From the sequence record MN518894.2: a stretch of 39,197 bases of DNA, one strand, 5' to 3'. Shown here in pieces: positions 2,856 to 35,729 of the stretch. Position numbers and translations under genes: made by a program. This DNA is from Escherichia virus LS2. The notes beneath the pieces were generated by a model, which was not told the origin of the DNA, searched no databases, and saw nothing but the letters and a program-made list of their open reading frames with translations. Position 1 is the first letter of the stretch. Every line of letters begins with the position of its first letter.

Positions 2856-5537
2856 ATGAGCGTCATCTCTATTGACAAACATGACTTCTCTGATGTGTCG
2901 AACGCCATTGAGCCGTTTAACCTGCTGGCTGACCACTACGGACAAGACCTTGCAGTCAAACAGCTTCAGCTTGAGCATGAGGCATATACAGAAGGCGAGC
3001 GACGTTTCATCAAGAACCTTGAGCGGCAGACTGAGCGCGGGGAACTGGCAGACAATCAGGTCGCCAAGCCTTTGATGCAGACTCTGGTCCCTAAGATTGC
3101 GCAAGCCGTCAGGGAGTGGCACGAAGGCCTAGACGGGAAGCTGTCAACCTCGCGTCCTAGCGTAGCGTTCACCATGTTGAGCACTGAAGAGAAGGCCGTT
3201 AAGGACCGCTCTATGCGCATCTCCTGTGAGTCCGCTGCGGTTATCATACTGAAGGTCATACTCTCCAAGCTGGTCAAGCCTGAAGGGATACCGATTACAC
3301 CGATGGCCTCCGCGATAGGTCGCACACTTGAGGACGAAATCCGCTTCGGTCGCATCCGTGACAAAGAGAAGGAGCACTTCAAGAAGGCGATAGCTGATAA
3401 CCTGAACAAGCGAGCTGGGGCATCCTACAAAAAAGCCTACATGCAAGCGGTCGAGGCGTCCATGCTGGAGCAAGGCCAACTGGAAGATGCATGGGGTACT
3501 TGGAGTCCTACAGAGGCTGTACACGTTGGCATCAAGATGCTCGAGATTGTCATCCAGTCAACACAACTGGTCGAGCTTAAGCGGTACGGTGCTGGTAATG
3601 CAGCGGCTGACGTAGAGATGGTCCACCTGTCAGACTTCTGGGTCAAGAAGATGGCACAACGAGGATTCAGCCTTGCGGGTATCGCTCCAGTCTACCAGCC
3701 TTGCGTCGTTCCACCTAAGCCGTGGACTGGTGTCGTAGGTGGTGGGTACTGGGCCAAAGGTCGCAGACCGTTACCATTGATTCGCTTAGGGTCTAAGTCT
3801 GCGGTAGCACGTTATGAAGACGTATACATGCCTGAAGTCTATGACGCTGTGAACATCATTCAGAATACACCTTGGAAAGTTAACAAGAAGGTATTGGACG
3901 TGGTGAACATGGTCGAGAAGCTGAACAACACGCCTATTAATGACATCCCTCAGATGGAACCGCTGAAGCCTGAGGACTATGCTGGTGAAACCGAGGAGGA
4001 ACTCAAGGCATGGAAGAAGACTGCTGCTGGTATCTATCGCCGCGAGAAGGCCAGACAGTCACGCAGATTGTCCATGAGTTTCATCGTTCACCAGGCCAAC
4101 AAGTTCTCACAGTTTAAGGCCATCTGGTTCCCGTACAACATGGATTGGCGAGGTCGTGTCTACGCTGTCCCGATGTTCAACCCTCAGGGTAACGACATGC
4201 AGAAGGGGCTCCTGACTCTGGCAGTCGGCAAGCCTATCGGGGCGGATGGTTTCAAATGGCTTAAAGTCCACGGTGCAAACTGTGCGGGTGTCGATAAAGT
4301 CACCTTCGATGAGCGCATCAAGTGGGTGGAAGACAACCACGAAAACATCATGGCTGCTGCTAAGGCACCGATGGATAGTATTGAGTGGTGGGGCAAGTTA
4401 GACTCTCCGTTCTGTTTCCTCGCGTTCTGCTTCGAGTATGCTGGCGTAATGCACCACGGCCTGTCTTACTCCTGCTCGCTGCCGATAGCGTTCGATGGGT
4501 CCTGCTCTGGTATTCAGCACTTCAGTGCGATGCTTCGTGACCACATCGGTGGACATGCAGTAAACCTGACGCCATCCGGCATGGTACAAGACATCTACCG
4601 CATTGTGTCTGACCGCATTGAGGAGGAGCTTAAAGTCCTTCTGATTAACGGTACTGACAACGAGATGGTCACTCACGAGGATAAGAAAACTGGTGAGATT
4701 ACCGAACGTATCAAGCTGGGGACACGAGAGCTGGCCCGTCAGTGGCTGACATACGGTATGTCACGCAAGGTCACTAAGCGTTCAGTCATGACTCTGGCAT
4801 ACGGGTCGAAAGAGTACGGATTCGCAGACCAAGTTTACGAGGACATCGTGATGCCAGCGATTGACTCAGGGTCTGGCGCTATGTTCACTGAACCAAGCCA
4901 AGCGTCTCGCTTCATGGCAAAGATGATTTGGGAAGCTGTGAGTGTGACAGTAGTTGCTGCGGTTGACGCGATGAAGTGGCTTCAAGGTGCTGCCAAGCTG
5001 CTGGCTGCTGAGGTGAAGGACAAGAAGACTGGGGAAATCCTGAAGCCTTGCCTTCCGGTACACTGGGTCACACCTGATGGGTTCCCGGTCTGGCAGGAAT
5101 ACCGCAAGAAGGATACCACTCGTCTGAACCTGATGTTCTTAGGGTCCTTCAACCTTCAACCTACGGTCAACAAAGGTACGAAGAAAGAGCTGGACAAGCA
5201 CAAGCAGGAGTCAGGCATTAGCCCCAACTTCGTCCACTCACAAGATGGTAGCCACCTGCGGAAGACTGTAGTCCACACTCACAGCAAGTATGGCGTGATG
5301 TCATTCGCAGTGATTCACGATAGCTTCGGGACCATCCCTGCTGACGCTGAGTATCTGTTCCGTGGTGTCCGTGAGACGATGGTCGAGACATACCGCGATA
5401 ACGATGTGCTGCTTGACTTCTACGAGCAGTTTGAATACCAGCTTCATGAAAGCCAGCGCGACAAGTTGCCTGAGCTTCCGAAGAAAGGTAAACTGAATAT
5501 CGAAGACATCTTGTCTTCAGACTTTGCATTCGCTTAA
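2856..5537 (+). CDS. gp1: Single-subunit DNA-dependent RNA polymerase (T7 gene 1 homolog, 893 aa)
   Basis: Co-linear similarity to T7 RNAP throughout, including C-terminal ...HSQDGSHLRKTVV...IHDSFGT...FAFA. Confidence 0.97.
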   Translation: MSVISIDKHDFSDVSNAIEPFNLLADHYGQDLAVKQLQLEHEAYTEGERRFIKNLERQTERGELADNQVAKPLMQTLVPKIAQAVREWHEGLDGKLSTSRPSVAFTMLSTEEKAVKDRSMRISCESAAVIILKVILSKLVKPEGIPITPMASAIGRTLEDEIRFGRIRDKEKEHFKKAIADNLNKRAGASYKKAYMQAVEASMLEQGQLEDAWGTWSPTEAVHVGIKMLEIVIQSTQLVELKRYGAGNAAADVEMVHLSDFWVKKMAQRGFSLAGIAPVYQPCVVPPKPWTGVVGGGYWAKGRRPLPLIRLGSKSAVARYEDVYMPEVYDAVNIIQNTPWKVNKKVLDVVNMVEKLNNTPINDIPQMEPLKPEDYAGETEEELKAWKKTAAGIYRREKARQSRRLSMSFIVHQANKFSQFKAIWFPYNMDWRGRVYAVPMFNPQGNDMQKGLLTLAVGKPIGADGFKWLKVHGANCAGVDKVTFDERIKWVEDNHENIMAAAKAPMDSIEWWGKLDSPFCFLAFCFEYAGVMHHGLSYSCSLPIAFDGSCSGIQHFSAMLRDHIGGHAVNLTPSGMVQDIYRIVSDRIEEELKVLLINGTDNEMVTHEDKKTGEITERIKLGTRELARQWLTYGMSRKVTKRSVMTLAYGSKEYGFADQVYEDIVMPAIDSGSGAMFTEPSQASRFMAKMIWEAVSVTVVAAVDAMKWLQGAAKLLAAEVKDKKTGEILKPCLPVHWVTPDGFPVWQEYRKKDTTRLNLMFLGSFNLQPTVNKGTKKELDKHKQESGISPNFVHSQDGSHLRKTVVHTHSKYGVMSFAVIHDSFGTIPADAEYLFRGVRETMVETYRDNDVLLDFYEQFEYQLHESQRDKLPELPKKGKLNIEDILSSDFAFA

Positions 5538-5549
5538 CAGGAGAGAGTT

Positions 5550-5765
5550 ATGAAATTTGCACACAAGCATGCTGGAGTTAAGGGCGGGACTCAAATCGTG
5601 ACCGTAACAGAACACAACGGCAATGGTCTGGTGAAGACCACGGTCATTCCTACCGAAATGTCAAAGCAGCTTAACGTCCCATTCAAGACCCTCGTCTATC
5701 TTGTGGAATCCAGCCACGAGAAATACCTGAAAGACGCAGTGACCAAGCTGGAGCAGACCAAATGA
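5550..5765 (+). CDS. Hypothetical protein (71 aa) between RNAP and the gene 1.1 promoter
   Basis: Good Shine-Dalgarno GGAGAG; natural codon usage; a degenerate second copy lies at 5843-6151. Confidence 0.65.
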   Translation: MKFAHKHAGVKGGTQIVTVTEHNGNGLVKTTVIPTEMSKQLNVPFKTLVYLVESSHEKYLKDAVTKLEQTK

Positions 5766-5839
5766 CAGACCTACAGTTACTGGCCTTGTGGCTGGGAGCA
5801 CTCGCAGTATTCACTTTAATCCAAAGCAGAAGAGGTTAA
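5762..5839 (+). CDS. Small hydrophobic peptide ORF (25 aa, MTDLQLLALWLGALAVFTLIQSRRG)
   Basis: ATGA overlap with the upstream stop; single predicted transmembrane helix; weak support. Confidence 0.3.
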   Translation: MTDLQLLALWLGALAVFTLIQSRRG

Positions 5840-5842
5840 CCC

Positions 5843-6151
5843 GAAATTTGCACACAAGCATGCTGGAGTTAAGGGCGGGACTCAAATGAACCATCCAGTG
5901 ACCGTAACATAATCTTGAGCTGGCTAACCGGGAACACACACGGCAATGGTCCAAGATTTAGAAGGCTCTGGTGAAGACCACGGTCATTCCTACCGAAATT
6001 AAGCGGATGGTCGGCCTGAAGTTCAAGGCTCTGTTCAAGACCCTCGTCTATCTTGTGGAATTCAAGACCGGGCCAGCCACGAGAAATACCAGAAAGACGC
6101 ACTTCACCACGAGTCGAGACAAGCTGGAGCAGACCAAATGACAGACCTACA
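5843..6151 (+). pseudogene. Block-mosaic degenerate copy of 5552-5775 (gene 5550-5765 plus the first codons of the next ORF)
   Basis: Nine blocks of 6-46 nt 100% identical to the upstream gene, separated by eight replaced blocks of 2-34 nt; ATG replaced by CCG; frame broken. Confidence 0.6.
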
Positions 6152-6343
6152 CGGATGGCTCTCAGAAGGACTTTGAGTACCGACTGAGCGACATCGACGG
6201 TCGCATCCAGTATGACTACGAGCAGGTTAAAGTCTATGGACAGGAGGCCGAACGTGAGCGAGCGATTCAGGCATTCACGCAGGTAAGACCGCGCATCATC
6301 TTACCCCTTTGCCTCCCATTGCCGTTAACCGTTAAAATTCCGT

Positions 6344-6395
6344 GTCGACGTACGTACGTACGTACGTACGTACGTACGTTGCATGCATGCATGCA
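6344..6395. repeat. GTCGAC followed by (ACGT)8 (6348-6379) and (TGCA)4 (6380-6395)
   Basis: Perfect tetranucleotide periodicity; alternating purine-pyrimidine, fully self-complementary; contains SalI, BsiWI, SnaBI, SphI and NsiI recognition sequences. Confidence 0.95.
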
Positions 6396-6417
6396 CTAAA
6401 CTATCACTATAGGATTA
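6395..6417 (+). promoter_or_regulatory. Phage-RNAP promoter (+1 near 6412), phi1.1 equivalent
   Basis: cactaaactatcactata G gatta. Confidence 0.8.
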
Positions 6418-6458
6418 GACTCAAGGTCATGACTCAAAGTCGTGGCCTTCATGATTAA
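6417..6458 (+). promoter_or_regulatory. RNase III-type processing site (R1.1-like)
   Basis: agactcaaggtc...gtggccttcatgatta resembles the T7 R1.1 site as I recall it; two further copies at 13113 and 36188. Confidence 0.6.
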
Positions 6459-6497
6459 CCGGTACGACTCAGGTTCAATTACCGGAGCTGTACACCA

Positions 6498-6671
6498 ATG
6501 TATCAGAACACTATCAACTTCGAGCGAATCCGTGAACGTCAGCAGACTGAAGATTATATTCCGAAGGGACGCAAGCTGAACAAGACCAAGCGTGGTGGAG
6601 GTGTCAAGGGTGCTTTCCGTAACGCTGAAGGCAAAGACGCTCTATGGTCAACCAAGAGAAATACTTCGTAG
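6498..6671 (+). CDS. gp1.1: gp1.1-like small basic protein (57 aa)
   Basis: Contains KGRKLNKTKR as in T7 gp1.1 (from memory); below the ORF-track length cutoff. Confidence 0.65.
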   Translation: MYQNTINFERIRERQQTEDYIPKGRKLNKTKRGGGVKGAFRNAEGKDALWSTKRNTS

Positions 6672-6686
6672 GAGTGTAACAAATTC

Positions 6687-6950
6687 ATGAACCATTACGA
6701 GCTTAAAGATTTCCTTTCAAAGCAGCAAAGAGTCTTGGACTTGTGGTTGAGCACGACTGGTATGCTCCAGCGTAGACTTAAGGTAGAGCGAGTGTCCTTC
6801 AGGACAGACTACAGCAAGAACGGCTACGAGCGAGGGACCTGCTACCGAGACTTGAGTTTACTGGACTCACTGGGTCCAACAGAATACGCCGATGCCATCG
6901 GTCCGGCTTACAACGGTCTCGCTTACACAATTTGGAGGATAACACAATGA
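6687..6950 (+). CDS. Hypothetical protein (87 aa) at the gene 1.2 position
   Basis: ORF between gp1.1 and ligase; stop overlaps the ligase ATG; no clear similarity to T7 gp1.2. Confidence 0.6.
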   Translation: MNHYELKDFLSKQQRVLDLWLSTTGMLQRRLKVERVSFRTDYSKNGYERGTCYRDLSLLDSLGPTEYADAIGPAYNGLAYTIWRITQ

Positions 6951-7999
6951 CAACTATCAAAACCAACCCGCATCGCGCTGTAGATTACTCTGAGTCAGGC
7001 GTTAAGAAAGCGCTTGAAGCTGCTGGGTCGCTGGAAGCCGAAGTGAAGTATGACGGTGTGCGGTTGAATATTCCGGTGATGCGCGAAGGTGAGAACTACT
7101 GGTTAAGCCGTGAGTCAAAAACGCTTCCGGCCTTAGACTGGGTCAACAGTGAGTCAGGACATGCATGCCGTGCGGCCGACTGGCGATGGTTCCTGAAGCA
7201 AGCAGGACATGAAGTCGTCGGTCTGCTGATTGACGGAGAGGTGCTGGTCAAGGGTGTAGACTTCAACACATCCTCAGGTCTTATCCGCACCATGTGGCTG
7301 ACCCCAAGCAACTACAAGTGCGCTGAAGGCTATCCAAGACGTGGCAACAAGGTCCCATTCCAGATAGCCCGGTTACTACTAAAAGTGGTCGTCTACGGGG
7401 TCATCGACCTTAACATCATCAACGACCCGAAAGCCGAAGGTCCTATCCATAGCGTCACACGCCTGAAGGCCGAAGCTATCGTCCCTCTCCTCCAGAAATA
7501 CTTCCCGGAAATAGACTGGGTTCTGTCTGAGTCATACATCGTGTTTGAGCTTGAGGAGCTTAACTACTTGTATGAAAAGAAGAGCCGAGAGGGCCATGAG
7601 GGTCTGGTGGTTAAAGACCCACTGGGACGCTGGAAGCGTGGCAAGAAGTCAGGTATGTTCAAGATGAAACCCGAAGAGGGCACGGACGGTACGTTGTACG
7701 GCCTGATATGGGGAACAGAAGGTCTAGCCAACGAAGGTATGGTCATCGGCTTTGACGTTATGCTTGAGAACGGGATGGAAGTGAACGCGTGCGGCCTGAC
7801 CGAAGAACAGAAAGATGAATTTACCGCGAGCGTGCTGAACTGGCGCAAAGGCCTGTGCAGCAGCACCATTTATGGCAACCCGTTTGCGGGCAACCAGGTG
7901 GAAGTGCTGTTTATGGAACGCTTTCCGGATGGCAGCCTGCGCCATCCGAGCTTTAAATGCTGGCGCGGCACCGAAGATAACCCGACCGTGAAAAGCTAG
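6947..7999 (+). CDS. gp1.3: ATP-dependent DNA ligase (T7 gene 1.3 homolog); true start ATG 6947 (MTTIKTNP...), C-terminal 73 codons recoded
   Basis: GGAGGA 7 nt upstream of ATG 6947; IKTNP N-terminus and C-terminal PDGSLRHPSF...RGTEDNP match T7 ligase. Confidence 0.93.
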   Translation: MTTIKTNPHRAVDYSESGVKKALEAAGSLEAEVKYDGVRLNIPVMREGENYWLSRESKTLPALDWVNSESGHACRAADWRWFLKQAGHEVVGLLIDGEVLVKGVDFNTSSGLIRTMWLTPSNYKCAEGYPRRGNKVPFQIARLLLKVVVYGVIDLNIINDPKAEGPIHSVTRLKAEAIVPLLQKYFPEIDWVLSESYIVFELEELNYLYEKKSREGHEGLVVKDPLGRWKRGKKSGMFKMKPEEGTDGTLYGLIWGTEGLANEGMVIGFDVMLENGMEVNACGLTEEQKDEFTASVLNWRKGLCSSTIYGNPFAGNQVEVLFMERFPDGSLRHPSFKCWRGTEDNPTVKS

Positions 8000-8152
8000 C
8001 AGAACCCACGGTCCTATACCAGGGTGTGTGACTCAGGCGGTGAACCCGTAGTCACTGCCAATCTGGAGAGAAATACGTTCAATACCAGAAATCAACTGGT
8101 CGATGGCAATAAAGCGTACGTCAGCCGAGGCGGTAGCCTAAGAGATTCATTA

Positions 8153-8192
8153 TAATGTCAACCCAGTGGTCATTAATGTCAACCCAGTGGTC
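8153..8192 (+). repeat. Tandem 19-bp direct repeat taatgtcaacccagtggtc x2 (8153-8171, 8174-8192)
   Basis: Exact duplicate; second copy forms the 5-prime arm of the terminator hairpin. Confidence 0.9.
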
Positions 8193-8235: not shown

Positions 8236-8258
8236 CCTAAGCTATCACTATAGGACAA
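8236..8258 (+). promoter_or_regulatory. Phage-RNAP promoter (+1 near 8253)
   Basis: ccctaagctatcactata G gacaa. Confidence 0.75.
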
Positions 8259-11198: not shown

Positions 11199-12902
<1,704 letters not shown>

Positions 12903-13173: not shown

Positions 13174-15345
13174 ATGTTTGACCTTAAGAGTATCTGGGGT
13201 TCTGACATAGAGACCAACGGTCTCCTTGATACAGTATCCCAGTTTCACTGTGGGGTCCTGATTAACGCCGAGTCGAATGAGACCCTTAAGTATGGGGTAG
13301 CTCCGATGGTCGGTATCGTCGGTGGCTTCAAAGAGTATGTACAGAAGGTGGAAGAGATTGCCGCATCACCTGATGGTATGCTGGTATTCCACAACGGTAT
13401 CAACTATGACGTCCCGGCTATTGACAAGCTGAAGCGTCTGTACTTTGGGAAACGCTTTAACTTCCCGAAACACAAGATGATTGATACCTTGGTGCTGGGA
13501 CGCTTGATGTATCCAAACATTAAGTTCTCAGACATGGGCGCAGTGAAAGCTGGTCGTCTGCCACCTAAGATGATGGGACGCCAGTCTCTTGAGGCTTGGG
13601 GCTATCGTCTCGGTGAGATGAAAGGTGAGTACAAACACGATTACGTTGCCAAGTGCAAGGCTGAAGGTATCGAATATAAGGCTGGGGACGAATGGTTGTT
13701 CCCATCTCAGGAGATGCTAGACTATAACGTTCAAGACGTTGTGGTCACACTGGCGTTGTTCAAGAAGTTCCTGACTGACAAGTATTACTTCCAGTCTGAA
13801 CAGTTCGCTTTCGACCAGATTTATGCGTTGCGTCTGGAACATGATGCTGCGTGGACCTGTGCGAAGATGGAACGTAACGGCTATCCGATGAACACCGAGA
13901 TGGTCGAAGGCTTATATCGTGAACTCACCGTCAAACGTGCAGAGTTGTTGGACAAGCTGCGTTCGACTTTCGGTAGCTGGTATGCACCAAAGGGAGGCAA
14001 GGAGTTCTTCAAGCACCCACGGACAGGCAAGGACCTTCCGAAGTATCCGCGAGTCGTGTATCCTAAGGTCGGGTCAGTATTCAAGAAGCCGAAGAACAAA
14101 GCTCAACGATTAGGTCTGGAGCCTTGCGAGTTCGACTCACGAGACACGATGGAAGGAGCACCGTTCACACCTATCACTTACGTTGAGTTTAATCCGGGAA
14201 GCGGAGACCACTTAGCGAAAGTCCTGATGGAGCGTGGCTGGGAGCCTGTGGACTTCACTGACACCGGGAAACCTGTAGTCGATGACGAGACGTTAGAACA
14301 CGTTAAGTTACCAGACGAAGAGGCTCAGGCTTGCGTAGAGCTGGTCCGTGAGTATCTGGTAGTCCAGAAGCGCATCGGTCAGGCTGCTGAAGGTAAGAAC
14401 GCATGGTTGAAACTTGTAGGTCCAGACGGACGTATGCACGGTTCAATCAACCCATGCGGGGCAGTAACCGGACGTGCTACTCATAGTTCACCAAACATGG
14501 CTCAGGTCCCTGCTAACGGTGCTCCGTATGGTGAGATTTGCCGTGGTGCTTTCGGTGCAGCTTGGAACAAGACGGATGGTAAGCCAGACCCTTGGATTCA
14601 AGTGGGCGTGGATGCCTCAGGTCTTGAGCTTCGTTGTCTGGGGAACCGAGCGGCCCCGTTTGATGGTGGAGCCTATGCGAAGACTGTGGTAGAAGGGGAC
14701 ATCCACTGGGCCAACGCAGTAAACGCTGGGTTAGCACCTAACGTCCCACGCGATAAGTCGAACCACGACCATGAGGCTTTCCGTAACAACGCTAAGACGT
14801 TCATCTATGCGTTCCTGTATGGTGCAGGGGCCGCTAAGATTGGACTGATAGTCGGTGGCGGTAAGAAGGAAGGTTCAGCTCTCATGAAGAAATTCATTGA
14901 GGGTACACCAGCTATCAAGGATCTGCGAGAGGCTGTGAAGAATACGTTAATCTCAGACTCTAAGTGGGTGGATGGAGAGAACATCGTCAAGTGGAAACGC
15001 CGTTGGTTGCGTGGACTTGATGGTCGCCGTATCCACATCCGGTCGCCGCACTCAGCACTTAACGCCTTACTTCAGGGTGATGGTGCGGTGGTCTGTAAAC
15101 ACTGGCTTGGCGAGAAGGAACCTAAGCTGGAAGAGGCAAAATACGTGCATGGCTGGGATGGTGACTTTGCGTGGATGGCTTTTGTCCATGATGAAGTTCA
15201 AGTTGCCGGAAGGACTATGGAAATAGCTGAGGACATCGTTAAGGTGGCGCAATCCACAATGCGAGAGGTTGGAGAGTTCTACAAGTTCAAGTGTGTACTT
15301 GACACCGAGGGAAAGATAGGATCGACGTGGAAGGAGTGTCACTAA
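13174..15345 (+). CDS. gp5: DNA polymerase (T7 gp5 homolog)
   Basis: Co-linear with T7 gp5 (N-terminal exonuclease D-I-E, motifs NYDVP, RATHSSPN, AKTFIYAFLYGAG, HDE). Confidence 0.96.
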   Translation: MFDLKSIWGSDIETNGLLDTVSQFHCGVLINAESNETLKYGVAPMVGIVGGFKEYVQKVEEIAASPDGMLVFHNGINYDVPAIDKLKRLYFGKRFNFPKHKMIDTLVLGRLMYPNIKFSDMGAVKAGRLPPKMMGRQSLEAWGYRLGEMKGEYKHDYVAKCKAEGIEYKAGDEWLFPSQEMLDYNVQDVVVTLALFKKFLTDKYYFQSEQFAFDQIYALRLEHDAAWTCAKMERNGYPMNTEMVEGLYRELTVKRAELLDKLRSTFGSWYAPKGGKEFFKHPRTGKDLPKYPRVVYPKVGSVFKKPKNKAQRLGLEPCEFDSRDTMEGAPFTPITYVEFNPGSGDHLAKVLMERGWEPVDFTDTGKPVVDDETLEHVKLPDEEAQACVELVREYLVVQKRIGQAAEGKNAWLKLVGPDGRMHGSINPCGAVTGRATHSSPNMAQVPANGAPYGEICRGAFGAAWNKTDGKPDPWIQVGVDASGLELRCLGNRAAPFDGGAYAKTVVEGDIHWANAVNAGLAPNVPRDKSNHDHEAFRNNAKTFIYAFLYGAGAAKIGLIVGGGKKEGSALMKKFIEGTPAIKDLREAVKNTLISDSKWVDGENIVKWKRRWLRGLDGRRIHIRSPHSALNALLQGDGAVVCKHWLGEKEPKLEEAKYVHGWDGDFAWMAFVHDEVQVAGRTMEIAEDIVKVAQSTMREVGEFYKFKCVLDTEGKIGSTWKECH

Positions 15346-15841: not shown

Positions 15842-16023
15842 AGTCGAGAAGGATCACCGCAAGTACGCTGAGTTGGTCTGTGGAGTGATACCTACGGCTC
15901 AGAGGTAAATCACTGGGACGTATATCGCCAAGTTCAGAAGGAGACCGAAATGTCTTCCAACTTCTGGAGCCAGACATTTATTCGCTGGAAAGGAGCTGCC
16001 GAGGAAGTCGAGCCGAAAGTCTG

Positions 16024-32876: not shown

Positions 32877-35576
32877 ATGTCCACGATTACACAATTCCCT
32901 TCAGGAAACACTCGTTACAGGATTGAGTTCGACTACCTAGCCAGAACGTTTGTTGTTGTTACGCTGGTGAATAGCTCTAACCCTGCCCTGAACCGTGTAC
33001 TGGAAGTTGGTCGAGATTACCGATTCCTTAATCCAACGATGATTGAGATGTTGGTTGACCAATCAGGTTTCGACATCGTTCGTATTCACCGTCAGACTGG
33101 AACTGACTTAGTGGTAGACTTCAGGAATGGCTCAGTGTTGACAGCTAGTGACCTGACCAATGCAGAGCTTCAGGCTATCCATATTGCAGAAGAAGGTCGA
33201 GACCAAACTGTTGACTTAGCGAAGGAATATGCCGATGCTGCTGGTAACTCTGCTGGCAACGCTAAGGATAGCGAGGACGAAGCACGACGAATCGCTGAGA
33301 GTATCAAGGCATCTGGTCTGCGAGGCTATATTACCCGTCGCTCCTTCGAGAAAGGCTTCAACGTTACAATATGGAACGAGGTACTGCTATGGGAAGAGGA
33401 TGGTGATTATTACCGATGGGATGGTGGACTGCCAAAAAACGTACCTGTTGGTTCAACTCCTGAAACGTCTGGCGGCGTTGGTTTGGGTGCGTGGGTTAGT
33501 GTTGGTGATGCGTCATTGCGCGCCCGGCCTGCCGAAAAACGTGCCGGTGGGCAGCACCCCGGAAACCAGCGGCGGCGTTGGCGCGATAACGGCGATCCGC
33601 GCGGCTGGGGCGCGATTGGCGATGGCGTGACCGATGATACCCTGGCGCTGCAGGCGTGCTTTGATACCGCGACCTGCGATATTGATCTGGGCGGCAAAAC
33701 CTATCTGGTGCGCAAAAACCCGACCCTGGCGGCGACCTATCCGAACGAACCGGATTTTAGCGATGGCAGCTATAACTATAGCCCGTGCCTGGCGCTGGTG
33801 GGCAAAAAAAACATTAAAATTCATAACGGCGCGCTGATTGTGGAAACCCATGGCCTGGATGCGATTAGCCTGATTGCGTGCGAACATGTGACCGTGGATC
33901 TGACCATTAAAGGCCCGGGCATTTTTCCGGCGATTGATACCCCGACCGGCTATGCGGAAAAAGGCGAAGCGAACTTTGGCTATGATAGCAGCCTGCTGCT
34001 GGCGCCGAACAACGCGCTGGATACCAGCGCGTATACCGGCGGCGCGTATGCGGGCGTGGCGGGCCAGTTTCCGAAATATAACGCGGATGGCAGCCAGGCG
34101 AGCGGCTGGCAGAGCACCTGGGGCACCTTTCTGGGCGGCTATATTGGCAGCTGGGCGTGCGGCGTGAAAGTGCAGCGCGCGTGCCGCGGCATTCTGATTA
34201 ACGATTGCGATATTAGCGGCTTTAACTTTGGCGCGGTGGGCATTGGCATTCGCAACACCGCGGCGGCGTATGGCGCGAGCGATTATACCACCGATGCGGA
34301 TATTCCGGATGGCGTGATGGTGATTAACACCCGCATTCGCAAATGCTATAGCGCGGGCATTTATGTGCTGAGCGGCTATCGCCTGAACTATATGGCGAAC
34401 AACATTGAAGATATTGGCCATCCGAACGGCAACGATGCGCTGAACGCGAGCTATGATCCGGGCTATGGCATTACCCATGGCCGCAACCGCCGCATTCGCA
34501 ACGTGACCATTACCGAAAACATGATTCGCAACTGCCGCCGCAAATGCATTGATTTTCATGGCGGCGGCCAGGCGATTATTGCGAAAAACCATTGCCTGGA
34601 ACATGGCGTGGTGGGCATTTATGCGAAATGCGGCCCGGGCTGGAGCCCGAACTATGAACCGTATAACCTGATTATTGCGGATAACTATGTGCGCAGCCGC
34701 GATGTGCCGGCGAGCGAAACCACCGGCCCGCTGATTGGCGCGAAATATACCCGCAGCATTGATGTGGGCGGCGGCGGCGAAGCGACCCAGGCGACCTATC
34801 CGGATCCGTTTGTGAAAATTCATAACAACTATTGCGAACTGCGCGCGTATGATGGCGTGGCGATTAGCACCGGCGCGGGCGATGATAACTATAACGTGTT
34901 TATGGATATTGATGTGAGCCATAACACCGTGGTGCTGAAATGCAACACCCCGAACAACTTTGCGGAAGGCATTGGCATTAACGCGGGCGCGGCGAGCAAC
35001 AAAGTGTATCGCGGCCAGCGCGTGAAACTGATTGGCAACAGCATTAAACAGCTGAACACCCTGAACCTGACCTATCGCAGCGCGGGCTATAAAATTCAGG
35101 GCATTCCGAAAAGCCTGATTATGCATGGCAACACCCTGGATCTGAACGTGAGCACCCAGAGCTGCAAACTGTGCGATTTTGTGATTGATAGCCGCATTAA
35201 CTATAGCTTTGAAGGCAACCAGGTGCTGAGCTTTAGCGCGCGCGATAGCGCGACCCTGCAGGAAGTGTGGCTGTATGATAACATGAAAATTACCCGCCCG
35301 GCGGCGGCGGCGGCGGCGACCATTAGCGGCAACCTGTTTCGCGGCATTTGGCAGGTGTGCATTGCGGGCACCGGCGATGCGTTTGGCGCGAAACAGACCC
35401 AGTTTGCGAGCACCGGCAGCGGCGGCACCGGCTTTGATGTGGTGCGCAGCGCGACCACCGGCTTTATTGCGACCTTTGGCATTGGCGCGAGCGGCCTGAT
35501 TGTGCCGGCGGTGACCCAGGAAAGCCAGGTGCAGATTAACCTGAAACTGGTGAGCAGCCTGGATAGCGTGGCGTAA
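32877..35576 (+). CDS. gp17: Tailspike / tail fiber (gp17 position): native T7-like N-terminal anchor (to about 33528) fused to a recoded pectate-lyase-like beta-helix (depolymerase-type) domain
   Basis: N-terminus resembles the T7 gp17 tail-binding domain (FDYLARTFVVVTL...); body contains WGAIGDGVTDDTLALQACF; single uninterrupted 899-codon ORF. Confidence 0.9.
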   Translation: MSTITQFPSGNTRYRIEFDYLARTFVVVTLVNSSNPALNRVLEVGRDYRFLNPTMIEMLVDQSGFDIVRIHRQTGTDLVVDFRNGSVLTASDLTNAELQAIHIAEEGRDQTVDLAKEYADAAGNSAGNAKDSEDEARRIAESIKASGLRGYITRRSFEKGFNVTIWNEVLLWEEDGDYYRWDGGLPKNVPVGSTPETSGGVGLGAWVSVGDASLRARPAEKRAGGQHPGNQRRRWRDNGDPRGWGAIGDGVTDDTLALQACFDTATCDIDLGGKTYLVRKNPTLAATYPNEPDFSDGSYNYSPCLALVGKKNIKIHNGALIVETHGLDAISLIACEHVTVDLTIKGPGIFPAIDTPTGYAEKGEANFGYDSSLLLAPNNALDTSAYTGGAYAGVAGQFPKYNADGSQASGWQSTWGTFLGGYIGSWACGVKVQRACRGILINDCDISGFNFGAVGIGIRNTAAAYGASDYTTDADIPDGVMVINTRIRKCYSAGIYVLSGYRLNYMANNIEDIGHPNGNDALNASYDPGYGITHGRNRRIRNVTITENMIRNCRRKCIDFHGGGQAIIAKNHCLEHGVVGIYAKCGPGWSPNYEPYNLIIADNYVRSRDVPASETTGPLIGAKYTRSIDVGGGGEATQATYPDPFVKIHNNYCELRAYDGVAISTGAGDDNYNVFMDIDVSHNTVVLKCNTPNNFAEGIGINAGAASNKVYRGQRVKLIGNSIKQLNTLNLTYRSAGYKIQGIPKSLIMHGNTLDLNVSTQSCKLCDFVIDSRINYSFEGNQVLSFSARDSATLQEVWLYDNMKITRPAAAAAATISGNLFRGIWQVCIAGTGDAFGAKQTQFASTGSGGTGFDVVRSATTGFIATFGIGASGLIVPAVTQESQVQINLKLVSSLDSVA

Positions 35577-35729
35577 GAATGCCTGTGGCTGGAAGCGGCG
35601 TTTCAGCGCCGCCGCTGCGAACGCATTGAAAGCCGCCTGACCGAACTGGAACTGATTATTAAAAAAGCGAAAGAAATTGAATCATAACAACTTTGGGTCA
35701 CGGACGACCCGCTTTAAACTGGAGGTTTT

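What the first reader, a model, noticed from the sequence alone, without database searches (positions are those of the whole stretch)
6142..6399. Start-less coding fragment with native codon usage between the mosaic copy and the repeat tract
An 86-codon open frame (…DGSQKDFEYRLSDIDGRIQYDYEQVKVYGQEAERERAIQAF…) runs from the stop at 6139 to TAA 6397, with no ATG, GTG or TTG before about 6320. It looks like the 3-prime part of a gene whose 5-prime end was overwritten by the mosaic segment. The stretch cag|gtaagaccg…pyrimidine-rich at 6285-6330 is noted only as a curiosity.
Basis: seen in the sequence. Interest (0 to 1): 0.4.

Follow-up and report, generated by a model that had tools for sequence, protein, structure and literature searches.

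The report
Dead remnant of phage gene 1.05
The start-less open frame is the leftover tail end of a known, dispensable T7-group phage gene (gene 1.05) whose front was overwritten by pieces of the neighbouring gene and whose end runs into an odd, probably artefactual 93-base insert, so it is ordinary rather than a new gene.

Summary
The window is a Kayfunavirus (T7-like) genome, 97-99.7% identical to Escherichia viruses ECG4 and LS3. The open frame at 6142-6399 exists as described.

Only its first 54 codons (6142-6302) are real coding sequence. They are the C-terminal third of gene 1.05 (Pfam PF25755 Phage_T3_1_05; PHROG 8103), 96% identical to phage Peacock and with normal codon usage.

The fragment lies in the same frame as the ORF 5971-6141 upstream. 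The stop at 6139-6141 is the stop codon of the neighbouring small gene (5550-5765). It arrived with the last of seven blocks of that gene that overwrite the 5' 309 nt of gene 1.05. All seven blocks are length-neutral and sit where they best match the sequence they replace.

The last 31 codons read through a 93-nt insert: 45 unique nt, then perfect (ACGT)x8 and (TGCA)x4. This insert was found only in the ECG4 and LS3 GenBank records. The frame ends at the native TAA, which is the first triplet of a phage promoter.

The 'splice site' is ordinary conserved coding sequence. The remnant is almost certainly untranslated. The pattern of disruption looks more like a sequence-record artefact than biology. 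Low interest.

The parts
5550..5765 (+). Intact small gene ('gpX', 71 aa, PHROG 8082). It is the source of the blocks copied into the mosaic.
   Evidence: ORF. PHROG 8082 E 4.8e-41. Identical to LS3 QLF86341.1. Source coordinates 5552-5775 of the copied blocks.
5843..6151 (+). Overwritten 5' part of gene 1.05. Seven gpX-derived blocks: 5843-5887, 5898-5909, 5932-5949, 5967-5999, 6034-6061, 6073-6100, 6120-6151. They alternate with six retained gene 1.05 blocks: 5888-5897, 5910-5931, 5950-5966, 6000-6033, 6062-6072, 6101-6119.
   Evidence: Gapless alignment with ECG4. Five-way alignment A1. Block decomposition. Retained blocks are 111/113 nt identical to Peacock, and replaced blocks are 51.5% identical to the sequence they replace.
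5959..5961 (+). In-frame amber TAG inherited from the Peacock-type gene 1.05 allele, which is already split into 38 aa + 99 aa.
   Evidence: Translations. Peacock annotation has CDS 5843-5959 and 6005-6304.
6007..6009 (+). ATG of the conserved 99-aa core ORF (MVGLKF...). Its GAGGT ribosome-binding site has been overwritten to GAAAT.
   Evidence: Read. Peacock RBS annotation at 5993-5997.
6139..6141 (+). In-frame TGA that creates the 'start-less' fragment. It is gpX's own stop codon (source 5763-5765), imported in the last copied block.
   Evidence: block 6120-6151 copied from 5744-5775. Translation.
6142..6302 (+). Genuine C-terminal coding remnant of gene 1.05 (...TDGSQKDFEYRLSDIDGRIQYDYEQVKVYGQEAERERAIQAFTQVRPRII).
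   Evidence: 150/151 nt identical to Peacock over 6152-6302. tblastn. PF25755 profile positions 48-73 of 73. PHROG 8103 positions 114-162 of 165. Codon score.
6303..6395 (.). 93-nt insert with unambiguous boundaries and no target duplication. It holds 45 unique nt (6303-6347), (ACGT)x8.0 (6348-6379) and (TGCA)x4.0 (6380-6395), all repeat copies perfect.
   Evidence: Alignment A1. TRF. Shared only with ECG4 and LS3. Absent from every other collection searched. Non-coding codon score.
6397..6420 (+). Phage RNA-polymerase promoter (phi1.1 position). Its first triplet, TAA, is the native stop of gene 1.05.
   Evidence: The core ACTATCACTATAGG occurs 11 times on the + strand against 0.17 expected. 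EcoDS1 annotates a promoter overlapping the end of gp1.05. The same overlap is tabulated for phage AP5 (PMC4283147).

Best explanation
Shown: 6142-6302 is the last 54 codons of a gene 1.05 homologue. Gene 1.05 is a T3/T7-group accessory gene of unknown function that sits between the RNA polymerase gene and gene 1.1. The fragment is not a separate entity. It continues the reading frame of ORF 5971-6141, and the whole of 5843-6302 is colinear, base for base, with the Peacock/ECG4 gene 1.05 allele. Seven stretches of that allele (196 nt) have been replaced in place by successive pieces of the neighbouring gene at 5550-5765. The replacements remove the start codon of the N-terminal part, destroy the ribosome-binding site of the 99-aa core ORF, and bring in that gene's TGA at 6139-6141. 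Downstream, a 93-nt insert (a multiple of 3) separates the penultimate codon from the native TAA, so the frame stays open for 31 meaningless codons. Inferred, function: the remnant does nothing as a protein. It has no start and no RBS, and it encodes only the last two strands and the last helix of a seven-strand domain. It is simply transcribed through as part of the early/middle polycistronic RNA. Loss should be tolerated, because close relatives such as ST1749 and LI10P1 lack gene 1.05 entirely. Inferred, origin: about 0.65-0.7 that the disruptions are artefacts of how the sequence record was made, for example a reference-guided or alignment-based consensus that wrote mis-aligned gpX sequence over a reference, plus filler-like inserted sequence. 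About 0.25-0.3 that this DNA really exists in the phage.
For: Identity of the fragment. Same frame and imported stop. Colinearity and block structure.

Evidence pointing to an artefact:
(a) All seven replaced blocks are exactly length-neutral. All retained blocks stay in one register with ECG4/Peacock, while the register of the gpX pieces drifts from +291 to +376.
(b) Each gpX block lies at or near its best-matching placement on the underlying allele, ranking 1-15 of about 470 placements. Identity is 51.5% against about 25% by chance. That is what a gapped alignment produces.
(c) The repeat tract is exactly 8.0 x ACGT followed by 4.0 x TGCA with no variant copy.
(d) The insert was found nowhere except the ECG4 and LS3 GenBank records. 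Searched: the other 186 of 188 matching phage records, IMG/VR, JGI metagenomes, 185,579 species genomes, plasmids, E. coli genomes, and 5.8 billion protein clusters including Logan/ENA assemblies.
(e) The mosaic junction and the mosaic ORF are absent from IMG/VR and from the protein collection.
(f) The same three records show other length-preserving private scrambles at identical positions, and a roughly 10-fold excess of tri-allelic sites.

Dispensability: the gene is precisely absent in ST1749.
Against: No reads or revision history could be inspected, so an artefact is inferred from pattern only. Standard global aligners reproduced the register of only some blocks, not the whole mosaic. The rest of the window is clean: all long genes are intact, and 17.5 kb aligns to ECG4 at 99.57% without a gap. 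A sloppy assembly overall is therefore not the explanation. The 93-nt insert recurs in three non-identical records, which could mean a real inherited feature of this lineage. Its length is a multiple of three and keeps the native stop in frame.
Confidence: 0.8

Rival explanations
1. The sequence is physically real. In this phage lineage a dispensable gene 1.05 decayed in vivo, through serial short template switches (MMBIR-like) to the neighbouring gene about 300 nt upstream, plus insertion of a 93-nt palindromic-repeat segment next to the phi1.1 promoter and origin region. The fragment is then a true pseudogene.
For: Gene 1.05 is accessory: absent in ST1749/LI10P1 and already amber-split in Peacock. 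The insert is shared by three distinct genomes. The rest of the genome is of good quality. Block edges show 1-6 nt microhomologies.
Against: About thirteen alternating switches that are each exactly length-neutral are not expected from any replication or recombination mechanism. The replaced stretches share about 50% identity with what they replace, which fits alignment logic but is too low for homologous exchange. Perfect (ACGT)8(TGCA)4 was seen in no other viral, prokaryotic or metagenomic sequence searched.
Confidence: 0.25
2. The fragment is expressed. Either the leaky UGA-C at 6139-6142 is read through from the upstream mosaic ORF, or translation re-initiates, giving a functional C-terminal peptide.
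For: It is in the same frame as ORF 5971/6007-6141. The stop context is UGA followed by C, which from general knowledge is a leaky context in E. coli.
Against: The upstream ORF has lost its GAGGT RBS. The product would be a chimera of scrambled residues. The fragment covers only the last two strands and the terminal helix of the predicted domain. It would also carry 31 nonsense residues from the insert.
Confidence: 0.03
3. The region is a non-coding functional element: an intron (cag|gtaag plus a pyrimidine tract), or a cruciform, origin or regulatory element formed by the palindromic repeats.
For: The repeats fold into perfect hairpins (z = -4.1). The site is next to the phi1.1 promoter, which in T7 neighbours the primary origin (general knowledge).
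Against: CAGGTAAGACCGCGCATCATCTT is conserved coding sequence for QVRPRII in intact homologues. There is no Rfam match near any threshold. The repeats are absent from the other 186 of 188 matching phage records.
Confidence: 0.02

Closest known systems
Gene 1.05 of the T3/T7 group (Pfam PF25755 Phage_T3_1_05; PHROG 8103), e.g. EcoDS1 gp1.05 (ACF15788.1, 156 aa) and Peacock CPT_Peacock_014 (QEG09676.1, 99 aa)
   Same: Same genomic slot between gene 1 / gpX and the phi1.1 promoter. 96% amino-acid identity to Peacock over the 48 aligned residues. The native TAA overlaps the promoter in the same way.
   Different: Only the last third of the domain survives uninterrupted. There is no start codon or RBS. 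The upstream two thirds are scrambled and closed by an imported TGA. A 93-nt insert lies before the stop.
ECG4_07 (WEU75002.1) and LS3_10 (WGG26684.1), annotated 130-aa 'hypothetical protein'
   Same: Same Peacock-type allele and the identical 93-nt insert, giving the same ...RPRIILPLCLPLPLTVKIPCRRTYVRTYVRTLHACMH tail.
   Different: ECG4 and LS3 keep the un-mosaicked 5' region and the ATG of the 99-aa core. They carry DYML in place of the near-invariant DFEY motif, which the window retains.
Kayfunaviruses lacking gene 1.05 (ST1749, LI10P1)
   Same: Flanks are colinear: GAGGTTAACC on the left, TAAACTATCACTATAGG on the right.
   Different: The whole 554-nt segment 5842-6395 is absent there, which shows that the gene is dispensable.

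Membership tests
Phage_T3_1_05 (PF25755) / PHROG 8103 gene 1.05 family | Sequence match to the family profile at or above the curated threshold | tested here: met
   The fragment scores 28.4 bits against a cut-off of 27, E 1.6e-6. PHROG 8103 E 3.3e-19. The intact EcoDS1 protein scores 84.6 bits.
Phage_T3_1_05 (PF25755) / PHROG 8103 gene 1.05 family | Coverage of the whole conserved domain | tested here: not met
   Only profile positions 48-73 of 73 (Pfam) and 114-162 of 165 (PHROG) are matched. The upstream part, ORF 5971-6141, matches PHROG 8103 only weakly (E 2.2e-4) and matches gpX's PHROG 8082 about equally.
Phage_T3_1_05 (PF25755) / PHROG 8103 gene 1.05 family | Synteny: between gene 1 and gene 1.1, with the stop overlapping the phi1.1 promoter | tested here: met
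   The AP5 promoter table shows the same overlap (PMC4283147).
Functional protein-coding gene | In-frame start codon with a ribosome-binding site, and an uninterrupted frame | tested here: not met
   No ATG/GTG/TTG before 6319. TGA at 6139-6141. The GAGGT RBS of the core ORF is overwritten.
Self-splicing or spliceosomal-type intron | Match to a known intron RNA family, or splice signals not explained by coding sequence | tested here: not met
   Rfam E-value scan of 5500-6800 gave only two chance-level hits on the repeat tract. The gtaag motif is conserved codons.
Natural microsatellite or insertion element | Presence in independent genomes or assemblies, copy variation, and target-site duplication or terminal repeats | tested here: not met
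   No occurrence outside ECG4 and LS3. All copies are perfect. There is no target duplication. No internal source was found for the 45 unique nt.
Diversity-generating retroelement (template/variable repeat pair) | Homologous template repeat in one register, adenine-specific changes, and a nearby reverse transcriptase | tested here: not met
   The copied blocks are 98-100% identical to their source but shift register by 85 nt, and they alternate with unrelated sequence. The gene content is that of a standard Kayfunavirus, and no reverse transcriptase is annotated in the near-identical ECG4, LS3 or Peacock records.

The most novel reading that the evidence does not exclude
The mosaic and the perfect palindromic tetranucleotide arrays are physically real. 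They would mark an origin- and promoter-proximal hotspot in this Kayfunavirus lineage, where serial short-range template switching rewrites a dispensable gene and a cruciform-forming (ACGT)8(TGCA)4 element has been acquired.
Probability: 0.05. Interest if true: 0.5.

Novelty: already known. Interest (0 to 1): 0.12.

Why it matters
It matters mainly as a data-quality point. The fragment should be annotated as a gene 1.05 remnant or pseudogene, not as a new ORF. The 130-aa 'hypothetical proteins' ECG4_07 and LS3_10 in GenBank carry a 31-residue tail translated from a suspicious insert. The window and those two records share length-preserving local scrambles, so they should be treated with caution in comparative or training data sets. 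If the DNA were shown to be real, it would be an unusual example of multi-switch templated rewriting next to a T7-group replication origin. The evidence favours an artefact.

Tried and rejected
1. Looked for the source record. The window is neither ECG4 nor LS3, nor their earlier versions as far as retained protein accessions allow that test. No exact protein was found for the mosaic ORF or for gene 1.1.

2. Tried to reproduce the mosaic by aligning gpX to the Peacock-type allele with five scoring schemes and MAFFT. Only some blocks (5940-5949, 6034-6061, 6120-6151) fell in the observed register, with Jaccard 0.44-0.54. This is suggestive but not proof of an alignment artefact.

3. Searched for the origin of the 93-nt insert in plasmids, E. 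coli genomes, IMG/VR, metagenomes and species genomes. Also searched the window, ECG4 and Peacock (the window's closest annotated relatives) for forward, reverse-complement, reversed or complemented copies. Only chance-level 10-11-mers turned up.

4. Predicted the fold of a full-length family member: mean pLDDT 83.9, an N-terminal helix, seven strands and a C-terminal helix. Searched it against the PDB and found no significant match (best E 0.12, TM <= 0.3). The parent gene's function stays unknown.

5. Literature: gene 1.05 appears only as 'hypothetical protein' in genome tables. No paper on ECG4 or LS3 was found.

6. Intron or structured-RNA reading: rejected.

Full report
**Context.** The window is a complete T7-like genome of the genus Kayfunavirus. 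The RNA polymerase gene lies at 2856-5537, a 71-aa gene ('gpX', PHROG 8082) at 5550-5765, gene 1.1 at 6498-6671 (PF08200), gene 1.2 at 6687-6950, and the ligase gene from about 6947. Over most of its length it is 97-99.7% identical to Escherichia viruses ECG4 (MN218775.2) and LS3 (MN518893.2). It is neither of them. Many proteins differ, including some whose accessions were kept from the first versions of those records.

**The observation.** TGA lies at 6139-6141 and TAA at 6397-6399, with 85 sense codons between them. The first in-frame start-type codon is TTG at 6319. The open frame's length is not remarkable by itself. The homology is what counts. tblastn finds the first 48 residues in 94 phage records, at 95.8% identity and E 1e-22 to Peacock. 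hmmscan assigns it to PHROG 8103 (E 3.3e-19, profile positions 114-162 of 165) and to Pfam PF25755 'Enterobacteria phage T3 gene 1.05 protein' (28.4 bits against a cut-off of 27, profile positions 48-73 of 73). In-frame windows of real genes score +0.38 +/- 0.15, and no out-of-frame window reaches +0.32. The tail 6304-6396 scores about -0.5 in all six frames.

**Anatomy.** Relatives have an intact gene at this site. EcoDS1 has gp1.05 at 156 aa. Peacock has a 38-aa and a 99-aa CDS separated by an in-frame amber codon. Others (ST1749, LI10P1) lack the gene precisely, with GAGGTTAACC abutting the promoter TAAACTATCACTATAGG.

Window 5843-6302 is colinear without a single gap with the Peacock/ECG4 allele. 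Within 5843-6151, however, seven stretches are replaced by successive pieces of 5552-5775. That source is gpX plus the first bases after it. The pieces are 98-100% identical to their source. The replaced blocks are 5843-5887, 5898-5909, 5932-5949, 5967-5999, 6034-6061, 6073-6100 and 6120-6151. The six retained blocks are 111/113 nt identical to Peacock, and 6152-6302 is 150/151 identical.

The frame of gene 1.05 is preserved throughout. ORF 5971-6141 and the fragment are therefore one frame. The TGA that separates them is gpX's own stop (source 5763-5765), carried in by the last block. The replacements also remove the ATG of the N-terminal part and change the GAGGT ribosome-binding site of the 99-aa core ORF to GAAAT.

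**The 3' end.** In Peacock and EcoDS1 the gene ends ...RPRIIF-TAA, and the TAA is the first triplet of the phage promoter. EcoDS1 annotates that promoter, and the same overlap is tabulated for phage AP5 (PMC4283147). The promoter core ACTATCACTATAGG occurs 11 times on the + strand of the window against 0.17 expected.

In the window, ECG4 and LS3, 93 nt (6303-6395) are inserted between ...ATCTT and CTAA. The boundaries are unambiguous and there is no target duplication. The insert holds 45 unique nt followed by exactly 8.0 perfect copies of ACGT and 4.0 perfect copies of TGCA. Because 93 is a multiple of 3, the native TAA stays in frame.

The 'cag|gtaagaccg' motif is the conserved codon run for QVRPRII. 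The 'pyrimidine-rich' stretch is the start of the insert. Rfam finds nothing meaningful.

**Is the disruption biological?** Several observations point to a computational origin:
- Every replaced block is exactly length-neutral. The gene 1.05 register is constant, while the gpX register drifts from +291 to +376.
- Each gpX block sits at or near the placement where it best matches the sequence it overwrites, ranking 1-15 of about 470 placements. Identity is 51.5% against about 25% by chance. This is what results when a gapped alignment of gpX onto a gene 1.05 reference is collapsed into a consensus.
- The (ACGT)8(TGCA)4 tract looks typed rather than evolved. Its junction occurs in no IMG/VR contig, no genome of 185,579 species, and, for the junction with the unique part, no JGI metagenome contig.
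- The unique 45 nt have no match in plasmids, E. coli genomes, IMG/VR, metagenomes or species genomes. They also have no source inside the phage in any orientation.
- Among 5.8 billion protein clusters, only the ECG4/LS3 protein carries the tail. All other family members, including those from Logan, ENA and JGI assemblies, stop at the native C-terminus.
- The mosaic junction and the mosaic ORF are found nowhere else.
- The same three records show other odd, length-preserving private differences. One is the 37-nt spacer before gene 1.1, where no phage carries the window's version (best 87% identity). Another is DYML in ECG4/LS3 in place of the near-invariant DFEY. There are also 36 tri-allelic against 435 bi-allelic sites.

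Some points argue the other way. I could not see reads. Standard aligners reproduce only part of the block register. The rest of the genome is clean. The insert is shared by three non-identical records. I put about 0.65-0.7 on a record artefact and about 0.25-0.3 on real DNA.

**Function.** Either way, the fragment is a dead remnant. It has no start and no RBS, and it lies behind a stop. In an AlphaFold model of a full-length family member (pLDDT 83.9) it corresponds only to the last two strands and the terminal helix of a helix / seven-strand / helix domain. It would be transcribed passively as part of the polycistronic RNA upstream of the phi1.1 promoter. That last point is an inference from T7-group transcription maps. 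The parent gene's function is unknown. There is no significant PDB fold match, and the papers found list it only as 'hypothetical protein'.

**Verdict.** The feature is a remnant of a known, dispensable gene family. The neighbouring mosaic and repeat tract are more likely artefacts than biology. Interest is low.

Noticed in passing
window 5762-5839 (+): An unannotated 25-codon ORF whose ATG overlaps the gpX stop (ATGA). It encodes MTDLQLLALWLGALAVFTLIQSRRG, a single hydrophobic helix. Among the window, ECG4, LS3, Peacock and EcoDS1, the differences in this frame are four synonymous changes (5773, 5782, 5786, 5803) and one Ser-to-Arg codon. It looks like a conserved small membrane-peptide gene that is not annotated in those four records.
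   Followed up: partly
window 6461-6497: The spacer between the post-promoter hairpin and the gene 1.1 start has the same length in the window, ECG4 and LS3. It differs at about 13 shared positions with unrelated bases in each record, and no other phage carries the window's version (best 87% identity). This looks like noise or filled-in ambiguous bases rather than divergence.
   Followed up: partly
window genome-wide versus L006 (ECG4) and L007 (LS3): There are 36 tri-allelic sites against 435 bi-allelic sites in 35,238 aligned columns, roughly ten times what independent substitutions would give. They cluster at 6465-6490, 11210-11216 and 15139-15141.
   Followed up: no
L006 (ECG4) 6190-6202 and L007 (LS3), equivalent to window 6173-6185: ECG4 and LS3 carry CTACATGCTGAGA (DYML) where the window, Peacock, EcoDS1 and all other family members have the near-invariant DFEY motif. 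ECG4 and LS3 also have ACG instead of the ATG of the N-terminal gene 1.05 part. In ECG4, gpX starts with CTG and is not annotated.
   Followed up: partly
window 5959-5961; L008 (Peacock) 5957-5959: The Peacock-type gene 1.05 allele has an in-frame amber codon that splits it into 38-aa and 99-aa CDSs. Many metagenomic family members begin at the 99-aa core (MVGIKF...). This suggests the C-terminal core is the conserved unit.
   Followed up: no
window 33525-35684 and 6680-6930, 7800-8150, 15843-15971: These segments are not shared with ECG4, LS3 or Peacock at 12-mer level. The largest lies in the tail-spike gene. 6396-6700, which overlaps the 6680-6930 segment, matches ST1749/LI10P1-type sequence. 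They are probably ordinary modular exchange.
   Followed up: no
window 8153-8192: A perfect 21-nt tandem duplication, TAATGTCAACCCAGTGGTCAT x 1.9. It lies just upstream of a promoter-like site at 8241.
   Followed up: no
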